Below are positions 9,926-64,000 of a stretch of 64,000 bases of DNA, one piece after another (position 1 is the first letter of the stretch; the number at the start of each line of letters is the position of its first letter). This DNA comes from Eledone cirrhosa. Taxonomy: Eukaryota. The position numbers were made by a program, and so were the translations under genes. The notes beneath the pieces were generated by a model, which saw only the letters and a list, made by a program, of their open reading frames with translations, searched no databases and had not been told where the DNA came from. The stretch covers positions 165,850,001 through 165,914,000 of the forward strand of contig OZ024742.1 of assembly GCA_964016885.1 (NCBI GenBank), given 5' to 3'.

Positions 9926-9962
9926 TTAATTCAATTTAATTTAATTTAATTTAATTTAATTT

Positions 9963-10050
9963 AGGGGAGATAATCGAACCAAGGGGAGATAATCGAGCCA
10001 AGGGGAGATAATCGAGTCAAGGGGAGATAATCGAGCCAAGGGTAGATAAT
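9963..10050 (+). repeat. 19-bp tandem repeat AAGGGGAGATAATCGAGCC, 5 cores (cassette 1)
   Basis: G-runs start at 9964, 9983, 10002, 10021 and 10040. The minus-strand ORF peptide has a 19-aa period, equal to 3 x 19 bp. Confidence 0.95.
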
Positions 10051-10060
10051 TTAATTTAAT

Positions 10061-10110
10061 ACCCGGAAATAACCGGAAATACGCGGAAATACCCAGAAAC
10101 ACCCGGAAAT
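10061..10110 (+). promoter_or_regulatory. Five 10-bp repeats (ACCCGGAAAT-like) carrying ETS-type CCGGAA/CGGAAA cores
   Basis: Sequence reads acccggaaat aaccggaaat acgcggaaat acccagaaac acccggaaat; equivalent blocks at 11098-11147 and 12269-12308. The repeat is seen directly; ETS binding is a motif-match inference. Confidence 0.4.
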
Positions 10111-10118
10111 AGCCCAGC

Positions 10119-10420
10119 GTGCATTGCGCATGCGCCAATGTTGGACAGCACTGCGCATGTGCTAAGGGTGGACCGTAGTTCGCATGCACGAATGTCGAAC
10201 CGCACAGCGCATGCGCGAATGTTGGACGGCATTGCGCATGCGCTAAGGTTGGACCATAGTGCGCATGCGCGAAAGTTGGACCGTAGTGCCCATGCGATAA
10301 GGATGGACTGTACTGCGCATGCGCAGTGCTGTCCAAACTTGGCGCATGCGCAGTGCCGTACAACCTTCCCACATGTACAGTACGGTCCAATTTTCGCGCA
10401 TGCGCACTACGGTCCAACCT
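10119..10420. repeat. 27-bp tandem repeat with palindromic GCGCATGCGC (NRF1/Ewg/P3A2-type motif), 11 motifs, orientation inverted at 10312-10327
   Basis: Motif starts at 10126 + 27n up to 10396, and the ORF peptides have a 9-aa period (AHA...). Units read AAGGTTGGACCGTAGT-GCGCATGCGC before the centre and the reverse complement after it. Confidence 0.92.
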
Positions 10421-10428
10421 CGAAACCA

Positions 10429-10540
10429 GTTTCGTTTCGTTTGGTTTTTTAGGTCCCCCAATTTCGTCTCCTTTCGGTTTTTTATGTTCCTCGGGTTCGT
10501 TTGATTTGATTTTTTTAGGTTTCGTTTCGTTTGTTTTTTT
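10429..10540 (+). repeat. ~32-bp T-rich repeat TTTCGTTTCGTTTGGTTTTTTAGGTTCCCCGG ending in a T-run (right-hand module of every closed cassette)
   Basis: 3-5 degenerate units here, at 11412-11558 and at 12627-12771; about 2.5 units close each type II cassette. Confidence 0.85.
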
Positions 10541-10904
10541 AAATTATATTAAATTAAATTAAATTAAATTAAATTAAATTAAATTAAATTAAATTAAATT
10601 AAATTAAATTAAATTGAATTAAATTAAATTAAATTAAATTAAATTAAATTAAATTAAATTAAATTAAATTAAATTAAAATGAATTAACATAATTAATTAA
10701 TTAATTAAAGAAAGTAATTAATAAAAAAAAATAAAAATAAATAAAATAAAATAAATTTAATTAATTAATTGATTAATTAAATAATTAATTAATTTAATTA
10801 ATTTGATTTAATTTAATTTAATGTAATTTAATTTAATTTAATTTAATCTAATTTAATTTAATTTAATTTAATTTAATTTAATTTAATTTAATTTAATTTT
10901 GTTT
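10541..10904. repeat. AT-only spacer: (AAATT)n ... (TAAT)n/A-tracts ... (AATTT)n
   Basis: (AAATT)n at 10541-10678 and (AATTT)n at ~10801-10900 are reverse complements. Related spacers separate all cassettes up to 23067. Confidence 0.95.
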
Positions 10905-11558
10905 ATGGGAGATAATCGAGCCAAGGGGAGATAATCGAGTCAAGAGGAGATAATCGAGCCAAGGGGAGATAATCGAGCCAATGGGAGATAATCGAGCCAA
11001 GGGGAGATAATCGAGCCAAGGAGAGATAATCGAGCCAAGGAGAGATAATCGAACCAAGGGGAGATAATGGAGCCAAGGGGAGATTATTTAATTTAATACC
11101 CAGAAATAACCGGAAATACGCGGAAATACCCAGAAACACCCGGAAATAGCCCACTGTGCACTGCGCAGGCGCTAAAATTGGACCGTAGTGTGCATGCGCG
11201 AAGGTCGGACCGTACTGCGCATGCGCGAATGTCGAACCGCACAGCGCATACGCGAAGGTTGGACCGTAGTGCGCATGCGGTAAGGATGGACGGTACTGCG
11301 CATGCGTAGTGCTGTCCAAATTTGGCGCATTCGCAGTGCGGTACAACCTTCGTACATGTGCAGTACGGACCATTTTTCGTGCATGCGCACTAAGGTCCGA
11401 TCTGGAAACCAGTTTCGTTTCGTTTGGTTTTTTAGGTTCCTCGATTTCGTCTCCTTTCGGTTTTTTAGGTTCCCCGGTTTCGATTCGTTTCATTTCTTAG
11501 GTTCGCCAGTTTCATTTCGTTTGTTTTTTTCAGGTACCCTGGTTTCGTTTCGTTTTTT
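10905..11558. mobile_element. Modular cassette type I, copy 2 core (10 x 19-mer cores, 5 x 10-mer, 9 x 27-mer motifs, T-rich block)
   Basis: 19-mer cores at 10906-11077, 10-mers at 11098-11147, 27-mer motifs at 11163 + 27n with the inversion centre at 11298. Confidence 0.5.
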
Positions 11559-11906
11559 AAATTAAATAAATTAAATTAAATTAAATTAAATTAAATAAAA
11601 TTAAATTAAATTATATTAAATTAAATTAAAATGAATTAAATTTATTTTATTTTATTTTTTTTTTTTTTTATTAATTACTTTATTAAGTAATTAATTATGT
11701 AATTAATTAATTAATTAATTAATTAATAAAGTAATTAATAAAAAAAAATAAAAAAATATAAAATGAAATAAATTTAATTGATTAATTAAATAATTAATTA
11801 ATTAATTAATTAAATAATTAATTAATTAAATTAATTAAATTAATTTGATTTAATTTAATTTAATTTAATTTAATTTAATTTAATTTAATTTAATTTAATT
11901 CAATTT
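11559..11906. repeat. Palindromic AT-rich spacer (~350 bp imperfect palindrome)
   Basis: TTATTAATTACTTTATTAA (11668-11686) is the reverse complement of TTAATAAAGTAATTAATAA (11723-11741). T-tract/A-tract and (AAATT)n/(AATTT)n arms extend the symmetry outward. Confidence 0.88.
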
Positions 11907-23520: not shown

Positions 23521-26500
23521 GGAGATAATTTCCAGCCCTCCAAGGGGCTATAATTTCCAGCGGTCCAAAGAGAGATAATTTCTAGCCGTCCAAGAGGAGA
23601 TAATTTCCAGCCAAGGGGAGATAATTTCCAGCCGTCCAAGGGGAGATAATTTTTTTAAAAATCAGGTGGAGATAATTTGTAAAAAAAATCAGGGGAAGAT
23701 AATTTGTAAAAACAAAATCAAGGGCAGATAATTTCCAGCCGTCCAAGGAGAGATAATTTCCAGCAGTGCAAGGGGAGATAATTTCCATCCGTCCAAGGGG
23801 AGATAATTTCCATCCTTCCAAGGGGAGATAATTTCCAGCCGTCCAAGGGGAGATAATTTCCCGCCAGCCAAGGGAAGATAATATTTAAAAAAATCAGGCG
23901 GAGATAATTTGTAAAAAAATCAGGGGGAAAAAATTTGTAAAAAAATCAGGGGGAGATAATTTGTAAAAAAAAATCAGGGGGAGATAATTTGTAAAAAAAA
24001 TCAGGGGGAGATAATTTGGAAAAAAAAATCAGGGGTAGATAATTTGTAAAAAAAAATCAGGGGGAGATAATTTCCAGCCGTCCAAGGGGAGATAATTTTC
24101 AGCCGTCCAAGGAGAGGTAATTTCTAGCCGTCCAAGGGGAGATAATTTCCAGCCGTCCAAGGGGAGATAATTTCCAGCCGTCCAAGGGGAGATAATTTTA
24201 AAAAAAAATCAGGCTGAGATAATTTGTAAAAAAAAAATCAGGGAGGAATAATTTGTAAAAACAAGCAGGGGGAGATAATTTGTAAAAAAAATCAAGGGGA
24301 GATAATTTCCAGCCGTCCAAGGGAAGATAATTTCCAGCCCTCCAAGGGGCTATAATTTCCAGCGTCCAAGGGGAGATAATTTCCAGCCAGCGAAGGGGAG
24401 ATAATTTTTTTAAAAAAATCACTGGGAGATTTGTAAAAAAAATCAGGGGGAGATAATTTGTAAAAAAAATCAAGGGGAGATAATTTCCAGCCGTCCAAAG
24501 AGAGATAATTTCTAGCCGTCCAAGGGGAGATAATTTCTAGGCAAGGGGAGATAATTTCCAGCCGTCCAAGGAGAGGTAATTTCTAGCCGTCCAAGGGGAG
24601 ATAATTTCCTGCCGTGCAAGGGGAGATAATTTCCAGCCGTCCAAGGGGAGATAATTTCCATCCTTCCAAGGGGAGATAATTTCCAGCCGTCCAAGGGGAG
24701 ATAATTTCCCGCCAGCCAAGGGAAGATAATTTTTAAAAAAATCAGGCGGAGATAAATTGTAAAAAAAATCAGGGGGAGATAATTTGTAAAAAAATCATGG
24801 GGAAATAATTTTAAAAAAAAAAATCAGGGGGAGATAATTTGTTAAAAAAATCAGGGGGTGATAATTTGTAAAAAAAAATCAGGGGGAGATAATTTGTAAA
24901 AACAAAATCAAGGGCAGATAATTTCCAGTCGTCCAAGGGGAGATAATTTCAAGCCGTCCAAGGAGAGATAATTTCCATCCTTCCAAGGGGAGATAATTTC
25001 CAGCCGTCCAAGGGGAGATAATTTCCCGCCAGCCAAGGGAAGATAATTTAAAAAAAAATCAGGCGGAGATAATTTGTAAAAAAAATCAGGGGGAGATAAT
25101 TTCCAGCCGTCCAAGGGGAGATAATTTTCAGCCGTCCAAGGAGAGGTAATTTCTAGCCGTCCAAGGGGAGATAATTTCCTGCCGTGCAAGGGGAGATAAT
25201 TTCCAGCCGTCCAAGGGGAGATAATTTCCATCCTTCCAAGGGGAGATAATTTCCCGCCAGCCAAGGGAAGATAATTTTTAAAAAAATCAGGCGGAGATAA
25301 ATTGTAAAAAAAATCAGGGGGAGATAATTTGTAAAAAAATCATGGGGAGATAATTTGTAAAAAAAAAATCAGGGGGAGATAATTTGTAAAAAAAAAATCA
25401 GGGGGAGATAATTTGTAAAAAAAATCAGGGGGAGATAATTTGTAAAAACAAAATCAAGGGCAGATAATTTCCAGTCGTCCAAGGGGAGATAATTTCAAGC
25501 CGTCCAAGGAGAGATAATTTCCATCCTTCCAAGGGGAGATAATTTCCAGCCGTCCAAGGGGAGATAATTTCCCGCCAGCCAAGGGAAGATAATTTTTAAA
25601 AAAATCAGGCGGAGATAATTTGTAAAAAAAATCAGGGGGAGATAATTTCCAGCCGTCCAAGGAGAGATAATTTTCAGCCGTCCAAGGAGAGGTAATTTCT
25701 AGCCGTCCAAGGGGAGATAATTTCCAGCCGTGCAAGGGGAGATAATTTCCAGCCGTCCAAGGGGAGATAATTTCCATCCTTCCAAGGGAAGATAATTTCC
25801 AGCCGTCCAAGGGGAGATAATTTCCCGCCAGCCAAGGGGAGATAATATTTAAAAAAATCAGGCGGAGATAATTTGTAAAAAAAATCAGGGGGAGATAATT
25901 TGTAAAAAAATCAGGGGGAGATAATTTGTAAAAAAAAAATCAGGGGGAGATAATTTGTAAAAAAAATCAGGGGGAGATAATTTGTAAAAAAAAATCAGGG
26001 GTAGATAATTTGTAAAAAAAATCAAGGGGAGATAATTTCCAGCCGTCGAAGGGGAGGTAATATCTAGCCGTCCAAGGGGAGATAATTTCCAGCCGTCCAA
26101 GGGGAGATAATTTCCAGCCGTCCAAGGGGAGATAATTTCCAGCCGTCCAAGGAGACATATTTTCCAGCCGTCCAAGGAGAGGTAATTTCTAGCCGTCCAA
26201 GCGGAGATAAATTCCAGCCTCCAAGGGGAGATAATTTCCAGCCAGCCAAGGGGAGATAATTTATCAAAAAATCAGGGGGAGATAATTTGTAAAAAAATCA
26301 GGGGGAGATAATTTGTAAAAAAAAATCAGGGGGAGATAATTTGTAAAAAAAAATCAGGGGGAGATAATTTGTAAAAAAAATCAGGGGGAGATAATTTGTA
26401 AAAAAAATCAAGGGGAGATAATTTCCAGCCGTCCAAGGGGAGATAATTTTCAGCCGTCCAAGGAGAGGTAATTTCTAGCCGTCCAAGGAGAGATAATTTC

Positions 26501-38500: not shown

Positions 38501-39548
38501 GGGTAGATAATTTGTAAAAAAAAATCTGGGGGAGATAATTTTTAAAAATAAATCAGGGGGAGATAATTTGTAAAAAAAAAATCAGGGGGAGATAATTTGT
38601 TATAAAAAATCAGGGGGAGATAATTTGTAAAAAAAATTAGGCGTAGATAATTTGTAAAAAAAATCAGGGGGAGATAATTTGTTAAAAAAATCAAGGGGAG
38701 ATAATTTGCAGCCGTCCAAGGGGAGATAATTTTCAGCCGTCCAAGGAGAGGTAATTTCTAGCCGTCCAAGGGGAGATAATTTCCAGCCGTCCAAAGGGAG
38801 ATAATTTCCAGCCGTCCAAGGGGAGATAATTTTTTTAAAAAAATCAGGCGGAGATAATTTGTAAAAAAAAATCAGGGGGAGATAATTCGTAAAAAAAAAT
38901 CAGGGGGAGATAATTTGTAAAAAAAAATCAGGGGGAGATAATTTGTAAGAAAAATCATGGGGAGATAATTTCCAGCCGTCCAAGGGGAGGTAATATCTAG
39001 CCGTCCAAGGGGAGATAATTTCCAGCCGTCCAAGGGGAGATAATTTCCAGCCGTCCAAGGGGAGATAATTTCCAGCCGTCCAAGGGGAAATAAATTCCAG
39101 CCTCCAAGGAGAGATAATTTCCAGCCAGCCAAGGGGAGATAATTTGTAAAAAAATCAGGGGGAGATAATTTGTAAAAAAAATTAGGGTGAGATAATTTCC
39201 AGCCGTCCAAGGGGAGATAATTTCCAGCCCTCCAAGGGGCTATAATTTCCAGCGTCCAAGGGGAGATAATTTCCAGCCAGCGAAGGGGAGATAATTTTTT
39301 TAAAAAAATCACTGGGAGATTTGTAATAAAAATCAGGGGGAGATAATTTGTAAAAAAAATCAAGGGGAGATAATTTCCAGCCGTCCAAGGGGAGATAATT
39401 TAAAAAAAAATCAAGTGGAGATAATTTGTAAAAATAATCAGGGGAAGATAATTTGTAAAAACAAAATCAAGGGCAGATAATTTCCAGCCGTCCAAGGGTA
39501 GATAATTTCCCGCCAGCCAAGGGAAGATAATATTTAAAAAAATCAGGC

Positions 39549-47800: not shown

Positions 47801-50800
47801 GGGGAGATAATTTGTAAAAAAAATCAAGGGGAGATAATTTCCAGCCGTCCAAGGGGAGATAATTTTCAGCCGTCCAAGGGGAGATAATTTCCCGCCAGCC
47901 AAGGGAAGATAATATTTAAAAAAATCAGGCGGAGATAATTTGTAAAAAAATCAGGGGGAGATAATTTGTAAAAAAATCAGGGGGAGATAATTTGTAAAAT
48001 AAAAATCAGGCGGAGATAGTTTGTAAAAAAAATCAGGGGGAGATAATTTGTAAAAAAAAATCAGGGGGAGATAATTTGTAAAAAAAATCAAGGGGAGATA
48101 ATTTGCAGCCGTCCAAGGGGAGATAATTTTCAGCCGTCCAAGGAGAGGTAATTTCTAGCCGTCCAAGGGGAGATAATTTCCAGCCGTCCAAGGGGAGATA
48201 ATTTCCAGCCGTCCAAGGGGAGATAATTTTTTTTTAAAAATCAGGCGGAGATAATTTGTAAAAAAAAATCAGGGGAAGATAATTTGTAAAAAAAAATCAG
48301 GGGGAGATAATTTTTAAAAAAAATCAAGGGGAGATAATTTCCAGCCCTCCAAGGGGCTATAATTTCCAGCGTCCAAGGGGAGATAATTTCCAGCCAGCGA
48401 AGGGGAGATAATTTTTTTTTTAAAATCATTGGGAGATTTGTAAAAAAAATCAGTGGGAGATAATTTGTAAAAAAAATCAAGGGGAGATAATTTCCAGCCG
48501 TCCAAGGGGAGGTAATATCTATCCGTCCAAGGGGAGATAATTTCCAGCCGTCCAAGGGGAGATAATTTCCAGCCGTCCAAGGGGAGATAATATCCAGCCG
48601 TCCAAGGAGACATATTTTCCAGCCGTCCAAGGAGAGGTAATTTCTAGCCGTCCAAGGGGAGATAAATTCCAGCCTCCAAGGGGAGGTAATTTCCAGCCAG
48701 CCAAGGGGAGATAATTTGTAAAAAAATCAGGGGGAGATAATTTGTAAAAAAAATCAGGGGGAGATAATTTGTAAAAAAAAATCAGGGGGAGATAATTTGT
48801 AAAAAAAATCAGGGGGAGATAATTTGTAAAAAAAAATCAGGGGGAGATAATTTGTAAAAAAAATCAAGGGAAGATAATTTCCAGCCGTCCAAGGGGAGAT
48901 AATTTTCAGCCGTCCAAGGGGAGATAATTTCCCGCCAGCCAAGGGAAGATAATATTTAAAAAAATCAGGCGGAGATAATTTGTAAAAAAAAAATCAGGGG
49001 GAGATAATTTGTAAAAAAAAAATCAGGCGGAGATAATTTGTAAAAAAAAATCAGGGGGAGATAATTTGTAAAAAAAAATCAGGGGTAGATAATTTGTAAA
49101 AAAAAATCAGGGGGAGATAATTTGTAAAAAAAATCAAGGGTAGATAATTTCCAGCCGTCCAAGGAGAGATAATTTTTAAAAAAAATCAGGCGGAGATAAT
49201 TTGTAAAAAAAAATCAGGGGGTGATAATTTGTAAAAAAAAATCAGGGGGAGATAATTTGTAAAAAAATCAAGGGGAGATAATTTCCAGCCGTCCAAGGGG
49301 AGATAATTTCCAGCCGTCCAAGGGGAGATAATTTTTTTAAAAAAATCAGGCGGAGATAATTTGTAAAAAAAAAATCAGGGGGAGATAATTTGTAAAAAAA
49401 AATCAGGGGGAGATAATTTGTAAAAAAAAATCAGGGGGAGATAATTTGTAAAAAAAATCAAGGGGAGATAATTTCCAGTCGTCCAAGGGAAGATAATTTC
49501 CAGCCCTCCAAGGGGAGATAATTTCCAGCCAAGGGGAGATAATTTGTAAAAAAAATCAGTGGAAGATAATTTTAAAAACAAAATCAAGGGCAGATAATTT
49601 CCAGCCGTACAAGGGGATAATTTGTAAAAAAAATTAGGCGTAGATAATTTGTAAAAAAAAATCAGGGGGAGATAATTTGTAAAAAAAAATCAGGGGGAGA
49701 TAATTTGTTAAAAAAATCAAGGGGAGATAATTTGCAGCCGTCCAAGGGGAGATAGTTTTCAGCCGTCCAAGGAGAGGTAATTTCTAGCCGTCCAAGGGGA
49801 GATAATTTCCAGCCGTCCAAGGGGAGATAATTTCCAGCCGTCCAAGGGGAGATAATTTTTTTAAAAAAATCAGGCGGAGATAATTTGTAAAAAAAAATCA
49901 GGGGGAGATAATTCGTAAAAAAAAATCAGTGGGAGATAATTTGTAAAAAAAAATCAGGGGGAGATAATTTGTAAAAAAAATCATGGGGAGATAATTTCCA
50001 GCCGTCCAAGGGGAGGTAATATCTAGCCGTCCAAGGGGAGATAATTTCCAGCCGTCCAACGGGAGATAATTTCCAGCCGTCCAAGGGGAGATAATTTCCA
50101 GCCGTCCAAGAGGAAATAAATTCCAGCCTCCAAGGAGAGATAATTTCCAGCCAGCCAAGGGGAGATAATTTGTAAAAAAATCAGGGGGAGATAATTTGTA
50201 AAAAAAATCAGGGTGAATTAATTTCCAGCCGTCCAAGGGGAGATAATTTCCAGCCCTCCAAGGGGCTATAATTTCCAGCGTCCAAGGGGAGATAATTTCC
50301 AGCCAGCGAAGGGGAGATAATTTTTTTAAAAAAATCACTGGGAGATTTGTAATAAAAATCAGGGGGAGATAATTTGTAAAAAAAATCAAGGGGAAGATAA
50401 TTTGTGAAAAAAAATCAGGGGGTGATAATTTGTAAAAAAAAATCAGGGGGAGATAATTTGTAAAAAAATCAGGGGGAGATAATTTGTAAAAACAAAATCA
50501 AGGGCAGATAATTTCCAGCTGTCCAAGAGGAGATAATTTCCAGCAGTGCAAGGGGAGATAATTTCCAGCCGTCCAAGGGGAGATAATTTCCATCCTTCCA
50601 AGGGGAGATAATTTCCGGCCGTCCAAGGGGAGATAATTTGTAAAAAAAATCAGGGGGAGATAATTTGTAAAAAAAAATCAGGGGGAGATAATTTGTAAAA
50701 AAAAATCAGGGGGAGATAATTTGTAAAAAAAATCAAGGGGAGATAATTTCCAGCCGTCCAAGGGGAGATAATTTTCAGCCGTCCAAGGAGAGGTAATTTC

Positions 50801-53800
50801 TAGCCGTCCAAGGAGAGATAATTTCCAGCCGTCCAAGGCGAGATAATTTCCAGCCGTCCAAGGGGAGATAATTTTTAAACAAAAAATCAGGCGGAGATAA
50901 TTTGTAAAAAAAATCAGGGGAAAATAATTTGTAAAAACAAAATCAAGGGCAGATAAATTCCAGCCGTCCAAGGGGAGATAATTTCCAGCAGTGCAAGGGG
51001 AGATAATTTCCAGCCGTCCAAGGGGAGATAATTTCCATCCTTCCAAGGGGAGATAATTTCCAGCCGTCCAAGGGGAGATAATTTCCCGCCAGCCAAGGAG
51101 AGATAATATTTAAAAAAATCAGGCGGAGATAATTTGTAAAAAAATCAGGGGAAGATAATTTGTAAAAAAATCAGGGGGAGATAATTTGTAAAAAAAAATC
51201 AGGGGGAGATAATTTGTAAAAAAAATCAGGGGGAGATAATTTGTAAAAAAAAATCAGGGGTAGATAATTTGTAAAAAAAAATCAGGGGGAGATAATTTTT
51301 AAAAATAAATCAGGGGGAGATAATTTGTAAAAAAAAAATCAGGGGGAGATAATTTGTTATAAAAAATCAGGGGGAGATAATTTGTAAAAAAAATTAGGCG
51401 TAGATAATTTGTAAAAAAAATCAGGGGGAGATAATTTGTTAAAAAAATCAAGGGGAGATAATTTGCAGCCGTCCAAGGGGAGATAATTTTCAGCCGTCCA
51501 AGGAGAGGTAATTTCTAGCCGTCCAAGGGGAGATAATTTCCAGCCGTCCAAAGGGAGATAATTTCCAGCCGTCCAAGGGGAGATAATTTTTTTAAAAAAA
51601 TCAGGGGGAGATAATTTGTAAAAAAAATCAGGGGTAGATAATTTGTAAAAAAAAATCAGGGGGGGATAATTTGTAAAAAAAAATCAGGGGGAGATAATTT
51701 GTAAAAAAAATCAAGGGGAGATAATTTCCAGCCGTCCAAGGGGAGGTAATATCTATCCGTCCAAGGGGAGATAATTTCCAGCCGTCCAAGGGGAGATAAT
51801 TTCCAGCCGTCCAAGGGGAGATAATATCCAGCCGTCCAAGGAGACATATTTTCCAGCCGTCCAAGGAGACGTAATTTCTAGCCGTCCAAGGGGAGATAAA
51901 TTCCAGCCTCCAAGGGGAGGTAATTTCCAGCCAGCCAAGGGGAGATAATTTGTAAAAAAATCAGGGGGAGATAATTTCCAGCCGTCCAAGGGGAGATAAT
52001 TTTCAGCCGTCCAAGGAGAGGTAATTTCTAGCCGTCCAAGGAGAGATAATTTCCAGCCGTCCAAGGGGAGATAATTTCCAGCCGTCCAAGGGGAGGTAAT
52101 ATCTAGCCGTCCAAGGGGAGATAATTTCCAGCCGTCCAAGGGGAGATAATTTCCAGCCGTCCAAGGGGAGATAATTTCTAGCCGTCCAAGGAGACATATT
52201 TTCCAGCCGTCCAAGGAGAGGTAATTTCTAGCCGTCCAAGGGGAGATAAATTCCAGACTCCAATGGGAGATAATTTCCAGCCAGCCAAGGGGAGATAATT
52301 TCCAGCCGTCCAAGGGGAGATAATTTCCCGCCAGCCAAGGGAAGATAATTTTAAAAAAAATCAGGCGGAGATTGTAAAAAAAATCAGTGGGAGATAATTT
52401 GTAAAAAAAAATCAGGGGGAGATAATTTGTAAAAAAAAATCAGGGGGTGATAATTTGTAAAAAAAATCAAGGGGAGATAATTTCTAGTCGTCCAAGGGAA
52501 GATAATTTCCAGCCCTCCAAGGGGCTATAATTTCCAGCGTCCAAGGGGAGATAATTTCCAGCCAGCGAAGGGGAGATAATTTTTTTTTTTTAAATCAGGG
52601 GGAGATAATTTGTAAAAAAAATCAGGGGGAGATAATTTGTAAAAAAAATCAAGGGTAGATAATTTCCAGCCGTTCAAAGAGAGATAATTTCTAGCCGTCC
52701 AAGGGGAGATAATTTCCAGCCAAGTGGAGATAATTTCCAGCCGTCCAAGGGGAGATAATTTTCATCCTTCCAAGGGGAGATAATTTCCAGCCGTCCAATG
52801 GGAGATAATTACCCGCCAGCCAAGGAGAGATAATATTTAAAAAAATCAGGCGGAGATAATTTGTAAAAAAAATCAAGGGGAGATAATTTGTAAAAAAATC
52901 AGGGGGAGATAATTTGTAAAAAAAAAATCAGGGGGAGATAATTTGTAAAAAAAATCAGGGGGAGATAATTTGTAAAAAAAAATCAGGGGTAGATAATTTG
53001 TAAAAACAAAATCAAGGGCAGATAATTTCTAGCCGTCCAAGGGGAGATAATTTCCAGCCGTCCAAGTGGAGATAATTTCCAGCCGTCCAAGGGGAGATAA
53101 TTTTTTTAAAAAAATCAGGCGGAGATAATTTGTAAAAAAAATCAGGGGGAGATAATTTGTAAAACCAAAATCAAGGGCAGATAATTTCTAGCCGTCCAAG
53201 GGGAGATAATTTCCAGCCGTCCAAGGGGAGATAATTTCCAGCCGTCCAAGGAGACATATTTTCCAGCCGTCCAAGGAGAGGTAATTTCTAGCCGTCCAAG
53301 GGGAGATAAATTCCAGCCTCCAAGGGGAGATAATTTCCAGCCAGCCAAGGGGAGATAATTTGTAAAAAAATCAGGGGGAGATAATTTGTAAAAAAAATCA
53401 GGGGGAGATAATTTGTAAAAAAAAATCAGGGGGAGATAATTTGTAAAAAAAAATCAGGGGGAGATAATTTGTAAAAAAAAATCAGGGGGAGATAATTTGT
53501 AAAAAAATCAAGGGGAGATAATTTCCAGCCGTCCAAGGGAAGATAATTTTCAGCCGTCCAAGGAGAGGTAATTTCTAGCCGTCGAAGGGGAGATAATTTC
53601 CAGCCGTCCAAGGGGAGATAATTTGTAAAAAAAAAATCAGGGGGAGATAATTTGTAAAAAAAAGTCAGGGGAAGATTTATAAAAAAATCAGAGGGAGATA
53701 ATTTGTAAAAAAAAATCAGGGGTAGATAATTTGTAAAAACAAAATCAAGGGCAGATAATTTCTAGCCGTCCAAGGGGAGATAATTTCCAGCCGTCCAAGT

Positions 53801-56800
53801 GGAGATAATTTCCAGCCGTCCAAGGGGAGATAATTTTTTTAAAAAAATCAGGCGGAGATAATTTGTAAAAAAAATCAGGGGGTGATAATTTGTAAAAACA
53901 AAATCAAGGGCAGATAATTTCTAGCCGTCCAAGGGGAGATAATTTCCAGCCGTCCAAGGGGAGATAATTTCCAGCCGTCCAAGGGGAGATAATTTCCAGC
54001 CGTCCAAGGGGAGATAATTTGCAGCCGTCCAAGGGGAGATAATTTCCAGCCGTCCAAGGAGACATATTTTCCAGCCGTCCAAGGGGAGATAATTTCCAGC
54101 CGTCCAAGGAGACATATTTTCCAGCCGTCCAAGGAGAGGTAATTTCTAGCCGTCCAAGGGGAGATAAATTCCAGCCTCCAAGGGGAGATAATTTCCAGCC
54201 AGCCAAGGGGAGATAATTTGTAAAAAAATCAGGGGTAGATAATTTGTAAAAAAAATCAGGGGGAGATAATTTGTAAAAAAAAATCAGGGGGAGATAATTT
54301 GTAAAAAAAAATCAGGGGGAGATAATTTGTAAAAAAAATCAGGGGGAGATAATTTCTAAAAAAAAATCAGGGGGAGATAATTTGTAAAAAAAAATCAAGG
54401 GGAGATAATTTCCAGCCGTCCGGGGAGATAATTTTCAGCCGTCCAAGGAGAGGTAATTTCTAGCCGTCCAAGGAGAGATAATTTCCAGCCGTCCAAGGGG
54501 AGATAATTTCCAGCCGTCCAAGGGGAGATAATTTCCAGCCGTCCAAGGAGACATATCTTCCAGCCGTCCAAGGAGAGGTAATTTCTAGCCGTCCAAGGGG
54601 AGATAAATTCCAGCCTCCAAGGGGAGATAATTTCCAGCCAGCCAAGGGGAGATAATTTGTAAAAAAATCAGGGGTAGATAATTTGTAAAAAAAATCAGGG
54701 GGAGATAATTTGTAAAAAAAAATCAGGGGGAGATAATTTGTAAAAAAAAATCAGGGGGAGATAATTTGTAAAAAAAATCAAGGGGAGATAATTTCCAGCC
54801 GTGCAAGGGGAGATAATTTCCAGCCGTCCAAGGGGAGATAATTTCCATCCTTCCAAGGGGAGATAATTTCCAGCCGTCCAAAGGGAGATAATTTCCCGCC
54901 AGCCAAGGGAAGATAATTTTTAAAAAAATCAGGCGGAGATTGTAAAAAAATCAGGGGGAGATAATTTGTAAAAAAATCAGGGGGAGATAATTCGTAAAAA
55001 AAAATCAGGGGGAGATAATTTGTAAAAAAAAAATGAGGGGGAGATAATTTGTAAAAAAAAATCAGGGGTAGATAATTTGTAAAAAAAATCAGGGGGAGAT
55101 AATTTGTAAAAAAAAATCAGGGGGAGATAATTTGTAAAAAAAATCAAGGGGAGATAATTTGCAGCCGTCCAAGGGGAGATAATTTTCAGCCGTCCAAGGA
55201 GAGGTAATTTCTAGCCGTCCAAGGGGAGATAATTTCCAGCCGTCCAAGGGGAGATAATTTCCAGCCGTCCAAGGGGAGATAATTTTTTTTTAAAAATCAG
55301 GCGGAGATAATTTGTAAAAAAAAATCAGGGGGAGATAATTTGTAAAAAAAAATCAGGGGGAGATAATTTGTAAAAAAAATCAAGGGGAGATAATTTCCAG
55401 CCCTCCAAGGGGCTATAATTTCCAGCGTCCAAGGGGAGATAATTTCCAGCCAGCGAAGGGGAGATAATTTTTTTTTTAAAATCATTGGGAGATTTGTAAA
55501 AAAAATCAGTGGGAGATAATTTGTAAAAAAAATCAAGGGGAGATAATTTCCAGCCGTCCAAGGGGAGGTAATATCTATCCGTCCAAGGGGAGATAATTTC
55601 CAGCCCTCCAAGGGGAGATAATTTCCAGCCGTCCAAGGGGAGATAATATCCAGCCGTCCAAGGAGACATATTTTCCAGCCGTCCAAGGAGAGGTAATTTC
55701 TAGCCGTCCAAGGGGAGATAAATTCCAGCCTCCAAGGGGAGGTAATTTCCAGCCAGCCAAGGGGAGATAATTTGTAAAAAAATCAGGGGGAGATAATTTG
55801 TAAAAAAAATCAGGGGGAGATAATTTGTAAAAAAAAATCAGGGGGACATAATTTGTAAAAAAAATCAGGGGGAGATAATTTGTAAAAAAAAATCAGGGGG
55901 AGATAATTTGTAAAAAAAATCAAGGGGAGATAATTTCCAGCCGTCCAAGGGGAGATAATTTTCAGCCGTCCAAGGGGAGATAATTTCCCGCCAGCCAAGG
56001 GAAGATAATATTTAAAAAAATCAGGCGGAGATAATTTGTAAAAAAAATCAGGGGGAGATAATTTGTAAAAAAAAATCAGGCGGAGATAATTTGTAAAAAA
56101 AAATCAGGGGGAGATAATTTGTAAAAAAAAATCAGGGGTAGATAATTTGTAAAAAAAAATCAGGGGGAGATAATTTGTAAAAAAAATCAAGGGTAGATAA
56201 TTTCCAGCCGTCCAAGGAGAGATAATTTTTTAAAAAAATCAGGCGGAGATAATTTGTAAAAAAAAATCAGGGGGTGATAATTTGTAAAAAAAAATCAGGG
56301 GGAGATAATTTGTAAAAAAAATCAAGGGGAGATAATTTCCAGCCGTCCAAGGGGAGATAATTTCCAGCCGTCCAAGGGGAGATAATTTTTTTAAAAAAAT
56401 CAGGCGGAGATAATTTGTAAAAAAAAAATCAGGGGGAGATAATTTGTAAAAAAAAATCAGGGGGAGATAATTTGTAAAAAAAAATCAGGGGGAGATAATT
56501 TGTAAAAAAAATCAAGGGGAGATAATTTCCAGTCGTCCAAGGGAAGATAATTTCCAGCCCTCCAAGGGGAGATAAATTCCAGCCAAGGGGAGATAATTTG
56601 TAAAAAAAATCAGTGGAAGATAATTTTAAAAACAAAATCAAGGGCAGATAATTTCCAGCCGTACAAGGGGAGATAATTTCCCGCCAGCCAAGGGAAGATA
56701 ATATTTAAAAAAATCAGGCGGAGATAATTTGTAAAAAAAATCAGGGGGAGATAATTTGTAAAAAAATCAGGGGGAGATAATTTGTAAAAGAAAAATCAGG

Positions 56801-59800
56801 GGGAGATAATTTGTAAAAAAAATCAGGGGGAGATAATTTGTAAAAAAAAATCAGGGGTAGATAATTTGTAAAAAAAAATCAGGGGGAGATAATTTGTAAA
56901 AAAAAATCAGGGGGAGATAATTTGTTAAAAAAATCAAAGGGAGATAATTTCCCGCCATCCAAGGGAAGATAATTTCCAGCCCTCCAAGGGGCTATAATTT
57001 CCAGTGTCCAAGGGGAGATAATTTCCAGCCAGCGAACGGGAGATAATTTTTTTAAAAAAATCAGGGGGAGATTTGTAAAAAAAATCAGAGGGAGATAATT
57101 TGTAAAAAAAATCAAAGGGAGATAATTTCCAGCCGTTCAAAAATAGAGATAATTTCTAGCCGTCCAAGGGGAGATAATTTCCAGCCAAGGGGAGATAATT
57201 TCCAGCCGTGCAAGGGGAGATAATTTCCAGCCGTCCAAGGGGAGATAATTTCCATCCTTCCAAGGGGAGATAATTTCCAGCAGTCCAAGGGGAGATAATT
57301 TTCCGCCAGCCAAGGGAAGATAATTTTTAAAAAAATCAGGCGGAGATTGTAAAAAAAATCAGGGGGAGATAATTTGTAAAAAAATCAGGGGGAGATAATT
57401 TGTAAAAAAAAAATCAGGGGGAGATAATTTGTAAAAAAAAATCAGGGGGAGATAATTTGTAAAAAATAATCAGGGGGAGATAATTTGAAAAAAAAATTAG
57501 GGGTAGATAATTTGTTAAAAAAATCAGGGGGAGATAATTTGTAAAAAAAAATCAGGGGGAGATAATTTGTAAAAAAAATCAAGGGGAGATAATTTGCAGC
57601 CGTCCAAGGGGAGATAATTTTCAGCCGTCCAAGGAGAGGTAATTTCTAGCCGTCCAAGGAGAGATAATTTCCAGCCGTCCAAGGGGAGATAATTTCCAGC
57701 CGTCCAAGGGGAGATAATTTTTTTAAAAAAATCAGGCGGAGATAATTTAAAAAAAAAAATCAGGGGGAGATAATTTGTAAAAAAAAATCAGGGGGAGATA
57801 ATTTGTAAAAAAAATCAAGGGGAGATAATTTCCAGCCGTCCAAGGGAAGATAATTTCCAGCCCTCCAAGGGGCTATAATTTCCAGCGTCCAAGGGGAGAT
57901 AATTTCCCGCCAGCCAAGGGAAGATAATTTTTAAAAAAATCAGGCGGAGATTGTAAAAAAAATCAGGGGGAGATAATTTGTAAAAAAATCAGGGGGAGAT
58001 AATTCGTAAAAAAAAAATCAGGGGGAGATAATTTGTAAAAAAAAATCAGTGGGAGATAATTTGTAAAAAAAATCAGGGGTAGATAATTTGTAAAAAAAAA
58101 TCAGGGGGAGATAATTTGTAAAAAAAATCAGGGGGAGATAATTTGTAAAAAAAAATCAGGGGGAGATAATTTGTAAAAAAAATCAAGGGGAGATAATTTG
58201 CAGCCGTCCAAGGGGAGATAATTTTCAGCCGTCCAATGAGAGGTAATTTCTAGCCGTCCAAGGGGAGATAATTTCCAGCCGTCCAAGGGGAGATAATTTC
58301 CAGCGTCCAAGGGGAGGTAATATCTATCCGTCCAAGGGAAGATAATTTCCAGCCGTCCAAGGGGAGATAATTTCCAGCCGTCCAAGGGGAGTTAATATCC
58401 AGCCATCCAAGGAGACATATTTTCCAGCCGTCCAAGGAGAGGTAATTTCTAGCCGTCCAAGGGGAGATAAATTCCAGCCTCCAAGGGGAGGTAATTTCCA
58501 GCCAGCCAAGGGGAGATAATTTGTAAAAAAATCAGGGGGAGATAATTTTCTAAAAAAAATCAGGGGGAGATAATTTGTAAAAAAAAATCAGGGGGAGATA
58601 ATTTGTAAAAAAAATCAGGGGGAGATAATTTGTAAAAAAAAATCAGGGGGAGATAATTTGTAAAAAAAATCAAGGGGAGATAATTTCCAGCCGTCCAAGG
58701 GGAGATAATTTTCAGCCGTCCAAGGGGAGATAATTTCCCGCCAGCCAAGGGAAGATAATATTTAAAAAAATCAGGCGGAGATAATTTGTAAAAAAATCAG
58801 GGGGAGATAATTTGTAAAAAAATCAGGGGGAGATAATTTGTAAAATAAAAATCAGGCGGAGATAGTTTGTAAAAAAAATCAGGGGGAGATAATTTGTAAA
58901 AAAAAATCAGGGGGAGATAATTTGTAAAAAAAATCAAGGGGAGATAATTTGCAGCCGTCCAAGGGGAGATAATTTTCAGCCGTCCAAGGAGAGGTAATTT
59001 CTAGCCGTCCAAGGGGAGATAATTTCCAGCCGTCCAAGGGGAGATAATTTCCAGCCGTCCAAGGGGAGATAATTTTTTTTTAAAAATCAGGCGGAGATAA
59101 TTTGTAAAAAAAAATCAGGGGAAGATAATTTGTAAAAAAAAATCAGGGGGAGATAATTTTTAAAAAAAATCAAGGGGAGATAATTTCCAGCCCTCCAAGG
59201 GGCTATAATTTCCAGCGTCCAAGGGGAGATAATTTCCAGCCAGCGAAGGGGAGATAATTTTTTTTTTAAAATCATTGGGAGATTTGTAAAAAAAATCAGT
59301 GGGAGATAATTTGTAAAAAAAATCAAGGGGAGATAATTTCCAGCCGTCCAAGGGGAGGTAATATCTATCCGTCCAAGGGGAGATAATTTCCAGCCGTCCA
59401 AGGGGAGATAATTTCCAGCCGTCCAAGGGGAGATAATATCCAGCCGTCCAAGGAGACATATTTTCCAGCCGTCCAAGGAGAGGTAATTTCTAGCCGTCCA
59501 AGGGGAGATAAATTCCAGCCTCCAAGGGGAGGTAATTTCCAGCCAGCCAAGGGGAGATAATTTGTAAAAAAATCAGGGGGAGATAATTTGTAAAAAAAAT
59601 CAGGGGGAGATAATTTGTAAAAAAAAATCAGGGGGAGATAATTTGTAAAAAAAATCAGGGGGAGATAATTTGTAAAAAAAAATCAGGGGGAGATAATTTG
59701 TAAAAAAAATCAAGGGAAGATAATTTCCAGCCGTCCAAGGGGAGATAATTTTCAGCCGTCCAAGGGGAGATAATTTCCCGCCAGCCAAGGGAAGATAATA

Positions 59801-62451
59801 TTTAAAAAAATCAGGCGGAGATAATTTGTAAAAAAAAAATCAGGGGGAGATAATTTGTAAAAAAAAAATCAGGCGGAGATAATTTGTAAAAAAAAATCAG
59901 GGGGAGATAATTTGTAAAAAAAAATCAGGGGTAGATAATTTGTAAAAAAAAATCAGGGGGAGATAATTTGTAAAAAAAATCAAGGGTAGATAATTTCCAG
60001 CCGTCCAAGGAGAGATAATTTTTAAAAAAAATCAGGCGGAGATAATTTGTAAAAAAAAATCAGGGGGTGATAATTTGTAAAAAAAAATCAGGGGGAGATA
60101 ATTTGTAAAAAAATCAAGGGGAGATAATTTCCAGCCGTCCAAGGGGAGATAATTTCCAGCCGTCCAAGGGGAGATAATTTTTTTAAAAAAATCAGGCGGA
60201 GATAATTTGTAAAAAAAAAATCAGGGGGAGATAATTTGTAAAAAAAAATCAGGGGGAGATAATTTGTAAAAAAAAATCAGGGGGAGATAATTTGTAAAAA
60301 AAATCAAGGGGAGATAATTTCCAGTCGTCCAAGGGAAGATAATTTCCAGCCCTCCAAGGGGAGATAATTTCCAGCCAAGGGGAGATAATTTGTAAAAAAA
60401 ATCAGTGGAAGATAATTTTAAAAACAAAATCAAGGGCAGATAATTTCCAGCCGTACAAGGGGATAATTTGTAAAAAAAATTAGGCGTAGATAATTTGTAA
60501 AAAAAAATCAGGGGGAGATAATTTGTAAAAAAAAATCAGGGGGAGATAATTTGTTAAAAAAATCAAGGGGAGATAATTTGCAGCCGTCCAAGGGGAGATA
60601 GTTTTCAGCCGTCCAAGGAGAGGTAATTTCTAGCCGTCCAAGGGGAGATAATTTCCAGCCGTCCAAGGGGAGATAATTTCCAGCCGTCCAAGGGGAGATA
60701 ATTTTTTTAAAAAAATCAGGCGGAGATAATTTGTAAAAAAAAATCAGGGGGAGATAATTCGTAAAAAAAAATCAGTGGGAGATAATTTGTAAAAAAAAAT
60801 CAGGGGGAGATAATTTGTAAAAAAAATCATGGGGAGATAATTTCCAGCCGTCCAAGGGGAGGTAATATCTAGCCGTCCAAGGGGAGATAATTTCCAGCCG
60901 TCCAACGGGAGATAATTTCCAGCCGTCCAAGGGGAGATAATTTCCAGCCGTCCAAGAGGAAATAAATTCCAGCCTCCAAGGAGAGATAATTTCCAGCCAG
61001 CCAAGGGGAGATAATTTGTAAAAAAATCAGGGGGAGATAATTTGTAAAAAAAATCAGGGTGAATTAATTTCCAGCCGTCCAAGGGGAGATAATTTCCAGC
61101 CCTCCAAGGGGCTATAATTTCCAGCGTCCAAGGGGAGATAATTTCCAGCCAGCGAAGGGGAGATAATTTTTTTAAAAAAATCACTGGGAGATTTGTAATA
61201 AAAATCAGGGGGAGATAATTTGTAAAAAAAATCAAGGGGAAGATAATTTGTGAAAAAAAATCAGGGGGTGATAATTTGTAAAAAAAAATCAGGGGGAGAT
61301 AATTTGTAAAAAAATCAGGGGGAGATAATTTGTAAAAACAAAATCAAGGGCAGATAATTTCCAGCTGTCCAAGAGGAGATAATTTCCAGCAGTGCAAGGG
61401 GAGATAATTTCCAGCCGTCCAAGGGGAGATAATTTCCATCCTTCCAAGGGGAGATAATTTCCGGCCGTCCAAGGGGAGATAATTTGTAAAAAAAATCAGG
61501 GGGAGATAATTTGTAAAAAAAAATCAGGGGGAGATAATTTGTAAAAAAAAATCAGGGGGAGATAATTTGTAAAAAAAATCAAGGGGAGATAATTTCCAGC
61601 CGTCCAAGGGGAGATAATTTTCAGCCGTCCAAGGAGAGGTAATTTCTAGCCGTCCAAGGAGAGATAATTTCCAGCCGTCCAAGGCGAGATAATTTCCAGC
61701 CGTCCAAGGGGAGATAATTTTTAAACAAAAAATCAGGCGGAGATAATTTGTAAAAAAAATCAGGGGAAAATAATTTGTAAAAACAAAATCAAGGGCAGAT
61801 AAATTCCAGCCGTCCAAGGGGAGATAATTTCCAGCAGTGCAAGGGGAGATAATTTCCAGCCGTCCAAGGGGAGATAATTTCCATCCTTCCAAGGGGAGAT
61901 AATTTCCAGCCGTCCAAGGGGAGATAATTTCCCGCCAGCCAAGGAGAGATAATATTTAAAAAAATCAGGCGGAGATAATTTGTAAAAAAATCAGGGGAAG
62001 ATAATTTGTAAAAAAATCAGGGGGAGATAATTTGTAAAAAAAAATCAGGGGGAGATAATTTGTAAAAAAAATCAGGGGGAGATAATTTGTAAAAAAAAAT
62101 CAGGGGTAGATAATTTGTAAAAAAAAATCAGGGGGAGATAATTTTTAAAAATAAATCAGGGGGAGATAATTTGTAAAAAAAAAATCAGGGGGAGATAATT
62201 TGTTATAAAAAATCAGGGGGAGATAATTTGTAAAAAAAATTAGGCGTAGATAATTTGTAAAAAAAATCAGGGGGAGATAATTTGTTAAAAAAATCAAGGG
62301 GAGATAATTTGCAGCCGTCCAAGGGGAGATAATTTTCAGCCGTCCAAGGAGAGGTAATTTCTAGCCGTCCAAGGGGAGATAATTTCCAGCCGTCCAAAGG
62401 GAGATAATTTCCAGCCGTCCAAGGGGAGATAATTTTTTTAAAAAAATCAGG
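40748..62451 (+). repeat. 10,846-bp near-perfect tandem duplication (higher-order repeat; copies ~40748-51593 and ~51594-62451)
   Basis: A constant ORF offset of 10846 holds along the whole length (40782/51628, 41845/52691, 44451/55297, 47282/58128, 49898/60744, 51357/62203). Confidence 0.93.
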
Positions 62452-62593
62452 CGGAGATAATTTGTAAAAAAAAATCAGGGGGAGATAATTCGTAAAAAAA
62501 AATCAGGGGGAGATAATTTGTAAAAAAAAATCAGGGGGAGATAATTTGTAAGAAAAATCATGGGGAGATAATTTCCAGCCGTCCAAGGGGAGG

Positions 62594-64000
62594 TAATTTC
62601 CAGCCCTCCAAGGGGCTATAATTTCCAGTGTCCAAGGGGAGATAATTTCCAGCCAGCGAACGGGAGATAATTTTTTTAAAAAAATCAGGGGGAGATTTGT
62701 AAAAAAAATCAGAGGGAGATAATTTGTAAAAAAAATCAAAGGGAGATAATTTCCAGCCGTTCAAAAATAGAGATAATTTCTAGCCGTCCAAGGGGAGATA
62801 ATTTCCAGCCAAGGGGAGATAATTTCCAGCCGTGCAAGGGGAGATAATTTCCAGCCGTCCAAGGGGAGATAATTTCCATCCTTCCAAGGGGAGATAATTT
62901 CCAGCAGTCCAAGGGGAGATAATTTTCCGCCAGCCAAGGGAAGATAATTTTTAAAAAAATCAGGCGGAGATTGTAAAAAAAATCAGGGGGAGATAATTTG
63001 TAAAAAAATCAGGGGGAGATAATTTGTAAAAAAAAAATCAGGGGGAGATAATTTGTAAAAAAAAATCAGGGGGAGATAATTTGTAAAAAATAATCAGGGG
63101 GAGATAATTTGAAAAAAAAATTAGGGGTAGATAATTTGTTAAAAAAATCAGGGGGAGATAATTTGTAAAAAAAAATCAGGGGGAGATAATTTGTAAAAAA
63201 AATCAAGGGGAGATAATTTGCAGCCGTCCAAGGGGAGATAATTTTCAGCCGTCCAAGGAGAGGTAATTTCTAGCCGTCCAAGGAGAGATAATTTCCAGCC
63301 GTCCAAGGGGAGATAATTTCCAGCCGTCCAAGGGGAGATAATTTTTTTAAAAAAATCAGGCGGAGATAATTTAAAAAAAAAAATCAGGGGGAGATAATTT
63401 GTAAAAAAAAATCAGGGGGAGATAATTTGTAAAAAAAATCAAGGGGAGATAATTTCCAGCCGTCCAAGGGAAGATAATTTCCAGCCCTCCAAGGGGCTAT
63501 AATTTCCAGCGTCCAAGGGGAGATAATTTCCCGCCAGCCAAGGGAAGATAATTTTTAAAAAAATCAGGCGGAGATTGTAAAAAAAATCAGGGGGAGATAA
63601 TTTGTAAAAAAATCAGGGGGAGATAATTCGTAAAAAAAAAATCAGGGGGAGATAATTTGTAAAAAAAAATCAGTGGGAGATAATTTGTAAAAAAAATCAG
63701 GGGTAGATAATTTGTAAAAAAAAATCAGGGGGAGATAATTTGTAAAAAAAATCAGGGGGAGATAATTTGTAAAAAAAAATCAGGGGGAGATAATTTGTAA
63801 AAAAAATCAAGGGGAGATAATTTGCAGCCGTCCAAGGGGAGATAATTTTCAGCCGTCCAATGAGAGGTAATTTCTAGCCGTCCAAGGGGAGATAATTTCC
63901 AGCCGTCCAAGGGGAGATAATTTCCAGCGTCCAAGGGGAGGTAATATCTATCCGTCCAAGGGAAGATAATTTCCAGCCGTCCAAGGGGAGATAATTTCCA
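62594..64000 (+). repeat. Third partial copy of the ~46124-47530 segment (offsets 16470 and 5624)
   Basis: The rare marker ccgttcaaaaatagag occurs at ~46287, ~57133 and ~62757; ORF ends align at 47282/58128/63752. Confidence 0.85.

What the first reader, a model, noticed from the sequence alone, without database searches (positions are those of the whole stretch)
9926..64000. Spatially ordered record of satellite birth: the internal array of a cassette grows, mutates and escapes into a >40-kb satellite
Seen in sequence: one core, GGGGAGATAAT, persists across 54 kb while its context changes stepwise from left to right. First come 19-mers in full cassettes (5, 10, then ~19 cores), then 25-mers in reduced cassettes (about 16-32 units). 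The cassette opened at 23068 never closes and becomes the A/B satellite. Intermediates are present: 25-mers that keep the 19-mer's CGAG (ataatttcgagccgg at ~14608, ~17843, ~19557) and 21-mers AAGGGGAGATAATTTCCAGCC (~23600, ~26640, ~31260). Established: satellites can derive from the central tandem repeats of non-autonomous elements (e.g. Helentron-derived DINE-1/HINE elements, foldback elements). Inference: this locus preserves consecutive stages of that process side by side. The direction of time is assumed, not proven.
Basis: partly seen in the sequence, partly recalled or inferred. Interest (0 to 1): 0.75.

Follow-up and report, generated by a model that had tools for sequence, protein, structure and literature searches.

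The report
Ancestors beside an 18-Mb satellite
Two rare, related forms of a repeat sit beside the edge of a huge satellite found on at least five chromosomes; they are likely its ancestors, but the satellite likely joined them later by recombination rather than being born at this spot.

Summary
One core runs from 9964 to the window end through 3 full 19-mer cassettes, 12 reduced 25-mer cassettes and the A/B satellite.

The order of descent is supported. Core-less cassettes at other loci form an outgroup. All reduced cassettes group with this window's full cassettes 2 and 3 (99/89), and edge units keep the older letters.

The 'escape' step is not recorded here. A/B is about 18 Mb on at least five chromosomes and 2.0 Mb at this locus. 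It is fully formed from its first unit at 23519. Five different abrupt cassette/satellite joints exist, in both orders, and on C1 A/B blocks open and close inside cassettes. The 21-mers are a deletion inside A/B, and array growth is not monotonic. A/B is likely a further collapsed cassette that joined cassette arrays through the shared core.

The cassette is not shown to be a Helentron or foldback element. Satellites born from internal repeats, and one-sided hybrids, are known. This scan noted the same lineage before on other DNA (e1-10328835). Long reads and sister species were not available. Verdict: partly supported; new member of a known kind.

The parts
1..9925 (+). Unrelated 88-bp satellite with 58-bp variants; about 12.5 kb in all, starting 2.6 kb upstream of the window; left neighbour only
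9924..10905 (+). Full (type I) cassette 1: (ATTTA)n, 5 cores of 19-mer (9964-10050), 10-mers (10058-10111), head-to-head 27-mers (10121-10417), 32/33-mer closing module z (10431-10532), palindromic AT spacer
10121..10417 (.). Head-to-head 27-mer module; predicted long hairpin, -114 kcal/mol, z -13 against 100 shuffles; absent from all reduced cassettes
10906..11907 (+). Full cassette 2 (10 cores); its z module groups with all reduced cassettes
11908..13261 (+). Full cassette 3 (19 cores); its z module groups with all reduced cassettes
13262..23068 (+). Eleven closed reduced (type II) cassettes: GGCC-type 25-mer array, shortened z, spacer; 10-mer and 27-mer modules absent, join at a shared TTT
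16183..23335 (+). Exact tandem duplication, offset 3570, 0 mismatches over 3583 bases (very recent, or an assembly artefact)
23069..23518 (+). Twelfth reduced cassette: 18 GGCC units, a truncated relative of the cassettes at 14075 and 19499
23517..23537 (+). Abrupt cassette/satellite joint inside the shared core; the following units are standard A/B variants
23519..64000 (+). A/B satellite: runs of GTCC-type 25-mers alternate with runs of 26-29-bp poly-A B units; continues to about G000:C3:167,893,100 (2.0 Mb; 140 kb read contiguously, the rest sampled)
40748..62451 (+). 10,846-bp higher-order duplication inside A/B, 4 mismatches

Best explanation
The window holds three related repeat forms side by side; they likely descend one from another by successive deletions, and the last form, a multi-chromosome satellite, was likely joined to the cassette array secondarily by recombination at the shared core. 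Steps: (0) a core-less modular cassette exists at 8 other loci examined (shown). (1) A 19-mer array entered its AATTT tract (shown as structure; event inferred). (2) The hairpin-forming 10-mer and 27-mer modules were lost at a TTT microhomology and the unit became a 25-mer, likely from a cassette like the window's cassettes 2 and 3 (inferred from tree and markers). (3) A reduced cassette likely collapsed further: the closing module became the B unit, the spacer was lost and G>T swept the inner A units (inferred, about even odds). (4) This A/B seed spread to about 18 Mb in mid-chromosome blocks (size shown; recency inferred). (5) A/B and cassette arrays exchange at the common core, giving abrupt joints in either order (joints shown; mechanism inferred).
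For: Outgroup and nesting: spacer marker in 0 of 44 core-less, 5 of 5 19-mer and 86 of 104 reduced cassettes. Reduced cassettes plus window cassettes 2 and 3 are one side of a branch at 99/89, and one clade for 19-mer cassettes is rejected, p-AU 0.0003; two z letters occur together in 0 of 44 core-less, 0 of 3 C2, 2 of 3 window full and 72 of 99 reduced cassettes. Edge relics: on C1 the first unit keeps the 19-mer's CG in 51 of 80 arrays against 5 of 1274 other units; in A/B the AG form, which keeps the cassette's G21, occurs in 434 of 756 units just before a B run against 28 of 2981 others. A second, differently joined deletion with 19-mers exists on C2. Between chromosomes A units are about 1% apart and share 22-24% of 50-mers; cassette units are 3.6-4.6% apart and share 1.5%. 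No gradient at the joint: GGCC in 1 of 6652 A units; 24 variants shared by at least 4 of 6 sequences make up 78% of units; private divergence 1.3% at the edge and 1.2-1.5% inside. Five distinct joints: window and C1 cassette>A/B; two on C1 and one on C21 A/B>cassette.
Against: The tree rests on 66-72 bases of a module that is itself repeated; on it 19-mer plus reduced cassettes as one clade is rejected (p-AU 0.027), against the spacer marker. Cassettes 2 and 3 could have been converted by their reduced neighbours. The edge counts are copies of few events. Mean divergence from consensus does not rank the layers: 19-mers 4.5-5.1%, 25-mers 4-7%, A units about 6%. The C3 array is among the most diverse A/B arrays (1.2-1.5% against 0.5% on C1), so C3 as the source is not excluded. 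The B-from-z match is post hoc (10 of 2000 shuffles as good). No sister species and no spanning long reads were available.
Confidence: 0.62

Rival explanations
1. In-situ birth: A/B arose at 23519 from the last cassette's array and spread from here; later homogenisation erased the intermediates.
For: The order matches the inferred lineage and this is the only locus found with all three forms. Step 19>25 looks local. C3 A/B is among the most diverse. The C21 cassette piece is a 94% copy of window 17742-19155, so this locus has exported DNA.
Against: The first units after the joint are standard variants. 0 of 15 common multi-change A haplotypes occur in window cassettes, 2 of 15 on C1. The AG last unit is seen in C1 cassettes (36 of 95) but not in the window's (0 of 7). 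The edge is not recently turned over (33-58% unique 50-mers) yet shows no ancestral trace. At least four other joints are secondary.
Confidence: 0.22
2. Reverse capture: an older core-bearing satellite invaded the core-less cassette through AATTT microhomology, so 25-mer and 19-mer cassettes are captured and shortened satellite pieces.
For: A/B is far more abundant and widespread than 19-mer cassettes. The same backbone is joined to several unrelated satellites at short homologies. On C1 young A/B does invade cassette arrays.
Against: It needs regain of the 10-mer, 27-mer and full z modules. Reduced cassettes nest beside full ones. Edge units keep 19-mer and GGCC states, not A/B states. No B unit occurs in closed cassette arrays.
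Confidence: 0.1
3. The left-to-right order is an assembly artefact.
For: A 3583-base duplicate with 0 mismatches; gaps lie at other A/B ends; no spanning reads were available.
Against: No N in the window or the 200 kb read around it. Both transitions lie outside the duplicate. The same kind of joint recurs on C1 and C21 with different variants.
Confidence: 0.06

Closest known systems
Helentron non-autonomous elements with central repeats (Cg_HINE, Cg170/HindIII of Pacific oyster; PMC7492417 and PMC8268682 passages, PMC12628747 section 5)
   Same: Short array inside a modular unit next to a microsatellite; the same repeat exists element-bound, standalone and in a one-sided form, which these papers say may arise by recombination between element-bound and standalone arrays.
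   Different: No sub-terminal inverted repeats or fixed ends shown; cassettes occur as ragged tandem clusters, not solo insertions; the monomer changes length (19 to 25) and the satellite has a second unit.
Tetris foldback element and TIR-220 satellite of Drosophila virilis (PMC4079207, abstract and outline only)
   Same: Modular, rearranged, non-autonomous-looking unit whose internal repeats seed long arrays.
   Different: No terminal inverted repeats bounding a unit; no target duplication at the one empty site tested; the satellite here is megabases long.
Layered expansion of human alpha satellite (10.1101/2021.07.12.452052, passages)
   Same: Older relatives at the array edge, a younger homogeneous array inside, seeding by insertion from another array (seen on C1).
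   Different: Only one side is layered, with no mirror symmetry on C3; centromere function untested; the layers differ in architecture as well as sequence.
Earlier scan note e1-10328835 (unreviewed)
   Same: Same lineage idea: a composite repeat found beside telomere-type DNA stripped down into the large satellite, lining array edges on three chromosomes.
   Different: This window adds the 19-mer stage, the tree placing reduced cassettes beside it, and the evidence that the joints are secondary.

Membership tests
Non-autonomous Helentron (HINE/DINE-1) | Microsatellite next to a central tandem array | tested here: met
   (ATTTA)n directly precedes every 19/25-mer array
Non-autonomous Helentron (HINE/DINE-1) | 11-12-bp sub-terminal inverted repeats with a short 5' IR | tested here: inconclusive
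   One search shows only microsatellite and 27-mer inversions, but lists just the 25 longest of 163 and of 67 pairs
Non-autonomous Helentron (HINE/DINE-1) | Short 3' palindrome near the end | tested here: inconclusive
   A long internal hairpin is predicted; it is not terminal and is missing from reduced cassettes
Non-autonomous Helentron (HINE/DINE-1) | Conserved ends and dispersed single copies | tested here: not met
   The 40 scored of 588 candidates fall in tandem clusters; an exact junction word gave 10 hits in 5 clusters; the 11 cluster ends printed stop in different modules. 548 candidates were not scored
Non-autonomous Helentron (HINE/DINE-1) | No target-site duplication | tested here: inconclusive
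   One empty site (C2): no duplication, but about 290 bp of the host repeat are missing, more like a repair patch
Non-autonomous Helentron (HINE/DINE-1) | Autonomous Rep/helicase partner sharing the ends | not tested
   No fixed ends to search with
Foldback DNA transposon | Long modular terminal inverted repeats bounding the element | tested here: not met
   Inversions are internal (27-mers, spacer arms); window units are head to tail; some C2 clusters hold both orientations
Foldback DNA transposon | Target-site duplication | tested here: not met
   None at the single site tested
Layered-expansion centromeric satellite | Older relatives outside, younger array inside | tested here: met
   On the left side of the C3 array
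Layered-expansion centromeric satellite | Mirror symmetry of layers | tested here: not met
   The far end joins a 9-mer satellite; the inverted block's outer end stops on (TA)n without cassettes
Layered-expansion centromeric satellite | CENP-A binding or hypomethylated dip | not testable with these tools
   Only position is known: blocks at 44-60% of the length of C1-C4 and about 50% of C21

The most novel reading that the evidence does not exclude
An 18-Mb satellite is a miniaturised composite cassette: each A-run/B-run pair is a whole cassette whose closing module was inverted and shrunk into the B unit. Its four-step ancestry is still readable in one genome, and the same non-transposon hairpin cassette is a recurrent nursery for several unrelated satellites.
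Probability: 0.35. Interest if true: 0.65.

Novelty: new member of a known kind. Interest (0 to 1): 0.42.

Why it matters
How a megabase satellite first arises is rarely traceable because intermediates are erased. Here four stages survive with markers that order them, so the path can be tested in related species. The case also warns that side-by-side order at an array edge is not proof of birthplace: a shared core lets old and new arrays join in either order.

Tried and rejected
21-mers as intermediates: rejected (only inside A/B, one main context). Window CGAG units as proof: weak (7 copies, 2-3 events; C>G in 32 of 591 distinct units against 21 C>A and 26 C>T); the better case is on C1. Monotonic growth: rejected. 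Divergence-from-consensus gradient along the window: none. C21 A/B as a specific daughter of the window edge: not resolved (100-mer share 0.093, equal to C1's). Protein coding: 16 ORFs of 150 aa or more are repeat read-throughs, nearly all TTG starts on the - strand; not pursued. Public runs: 20 of 24 had shares of only 0.08-0.11; seven contig runs laid gave 0-5 short pieces, so no outgroup; one reduced-representation short-read run shows backbone and 25-mer reads but spans no transition. An 11-A junction pattern found 0 hits. Earlier-finding look-ups near the window and by sequence were empty. Paper searches listed no description of this repeat (listings only; one returned nothing); supplements were not opened and subscription papers are not covered. 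Rfam was not searched.

Full report
Observation. The core GGGGAGATAAT occurs 1057 times exactly, all on the + strand, from 9964 to 63985 and never in the 88-bp satellite to its left. Three full cassettes carry 5, 10 and 19 cores of a 19-mer, then 10-mers, head-to-head 27-mers, a 32/33-mer closing module (z) and a palindromic AT spacer. Eleven closed reduced cassettes and a twelfth open one carry a 25-mer ending GGCCAA. From 23519 runs of a 25-mer ending GTCCAA (A) alternate with poly-A units (B). Four reduced cassettes are an exact 3570-bp duplicate, and A/B holds a 10,846-bp duplicate with 4 mismatches.

Where this lies. The window is G000:C3:165,850,001-165,914,000 of a 3.0-Gb genome. A/B fills all 140 kb read downstream and all 19 two-kb samples to 167.88 Mb. 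It ends at about 167,893,100 in a direct join to a 9-mer satellite, so it is about 2.0 Mb; breaks between samples cannot be excluded. An AT-rich satellite follows, then an inverted A/B block of about 0.35 Mb whose outer end stops on (TA)n without cassettes. One A/B junction 35-mer has 29,677 exact hits genome-wide; at 575 hits per 358 kb sampled this is about 18 Mb. A/B also lies on C1, C2 (7 of 8 samples over 245.6-251.5 Mb), C4, C21 and unplaced C123. All chromosome blocks are mid-chromosome; centromere function is untested, and earlier unreviewed notes name other candidates.

The cassette family. The backbone has 588 first-look candidates, 40 scored. At the 9 other loci fetched it forms tandem clusters; 8 lack the core altogether, and most border other satellites such as degenerate TTAGGG arrays, a 32-mer and a 16-mer. 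19-mer arrays were found by exact patterns at only 2 loci, the window and C2:192.175 Mb. The reduced cassette's closing word has 69 hits: 55 on C1, 11 in the window, 2 at C3:179.43 Mb, 1 on C21.

Direction of descent. A spacer marker is in 0 of 44 core-less, 5 of 5 19-mer and 86 of 104 reduced cassettes; 9 of 163 anchors were dropped first, including window cassette 1, and 1 was unclassified. On the last 72 bases of z (57 distinct rows, C1 thinned to one in eight), reduced cassettes plus window cassettes 2 and 3 form one side of a branch at 99/89, and one clade of 19-mer cassettes is rejected (p-AU 0.0003). That group was seen first (93/78), so it was not named in advance. Against this reading, 19-mer plus reduced cassettes as one clade is also rejected (p-AU 0.027). 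Loss of the 10-mer and 27-mer modules joins GATAATTT to CGTTTCG at a shared TTT (sequence). The lost part is a predicted strong hairpin, and a different deletion of the same modules with 19-mers exists on C2. On C1 the first unit of an array keeps the 19-mer's CG in 51 of 80 arrays against 5 of 1274 other units; these are copies of few events. Between chromosomes, A units are about 1% apart and cassette units 3.6-4.6%, so A/B spread or homogenised later than the cassette arrays split. Mean divergence from consensus does not rank the layers.

The claimed intermediates. Window CGAG units are 7 copies of 2-3 events in inner positions, and C>G is not clearly in excess. 21-mers are absent from 1885 cassette units and 12 of 14 window copies follow the same A variant, so they are best read as one deletion inside A/B. 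Array size shows no trend after the third cassette.

The escape step. The open cassette is a truncated relative of those at 14075 and 19499. The units after 23519 are standard variants. GGCC occurs in 1 of 6652 A units; 24 shared variants make up 78% of them; private divergence is 1.3% at the edge and 1.2-1.5% inside. None of 15 common multi-change A haplotypes occurs in window cassettes, 2 do on C1. On C1, A/B blocks of 8-9 kb and one of about 210 kb (sampled) begin and end inside cassette arrays, which then close normally; C21 has A/B before the cassettes. That gives five distinct abrupt joints in both orders, all at the core. At most one can be a birthplace, and none shows a gradient. C3 is not excluded as source, as its A/B is among the most diverse and C1's the least.

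How A/B likely arose (inference). The cassette's G21 survives in A/B almost only in the unit before a B run (434 of 756 against 28 of 2981), the position that precedes z in a cassette. B reads TTTG-TAAAAAAATC-AGG where z reads TTTG-ATTTTTT-AGG, the pattern of a small inversion; 10 of 2000 shuffles match as well, and the test was post hoc. So A/B is more likely a collapsed cassette than a runaway array; I put this at about even odds.

Comparison with known systems. Satellites from central repeats of Helentrons, and one-sided hybrids that may arise by recombination with standalone arrays, are described for oyster (PMC7492417 and PMC8268682, passages; PMC12628747, section 5 and passages). Tetris is the foldback case (PMC4079207, abstract and outline). 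Layered expansion with seeding from another array is described for human centromeres (10.1101/2021.07.12.452052, passages). The cassette works like these but fails or leaves open the defining tests: ragged ends, no solo copies among those scored, and at the one empty site tested a 290-bp loss with no duplication. Searches listed no paper on this repeat; supplements were not read.

Verdict. Real, well-ordered lineage; the first step likely local, the satellite's birth likely not. Known kind of process, seen before in this scan, with an unusually complete set of stages. Interest 0.42.

Noticed in passing
L179:4700-5600 (G000:C15:43.217 Mb); related L180, L181: The same AT spacer, without cassette, grades through a chain of pentamers (AATTC, AATCC, AGCCG, GTTCG, GTTTC, GCTTG, GCTTA) into a satellite of at least 5 kb; a truly gradual record that includes the CGAGCC of the 19-mer and the GTTTC of z.
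   Followed up: partly
L043-L046, L041-L042, L050-L052 (C8, C14, C13): Core-less cassette clusters sit between degenerate TTAGGG arrays and a 32-mer satellite; the 32-mer joins the 27-mer module at nearly the same point at four loci.
   Followed up: partly
L047-L049 (G000:C4:101.46-101.49 Mb): The cassette's 27-mer is expanded to 23-67 copies and alternates with a 16-mer GCAC-type satellite: a second module of the same cassette growing into arrays.
   Followed up: no
L037:5140-8180 (G000:C2:192.175 Mb): Four 19-mer cassettes replace about 290 bp of a dispersed repeat whose copies are 94-98% alike, without target duplication; looks like a recent break-repair patch.
   Followed up: yes
G000:C3:167.893-168.76 Mb: A 9-mer and an 11-13-mer AT-rich satellite lie between two A/B blocks that point toward each other; the 9-mer also borders A/B on C21 and the 11-13-mer lies near A/B on C4.
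   Followed up: partly
G000:C2:245.6-251.0 Mb: The largest A/B block sampled switches strand between 248.3 and 249.0 Mb, arms pointing away from each other.
   Followed up: no
window 16183-23335: Exact 3570-bp duplicate with no mismatch; needs long reads to tell recent duplication from assembly error.
   Followed up: no
window 1-9925: 88-bp satellite with recurring 58-bp deletion units forming 146/234/322-bp higher-order periods.
   Followed up: no
window 11640-11760 and 12830-12960; L084:6940-7100: Spacers of full cassettes 2 and 3 hold an inverted copy of the spacer core, and the cassette at C3:179.43 Mb has it only inverted.
   Followed up: no
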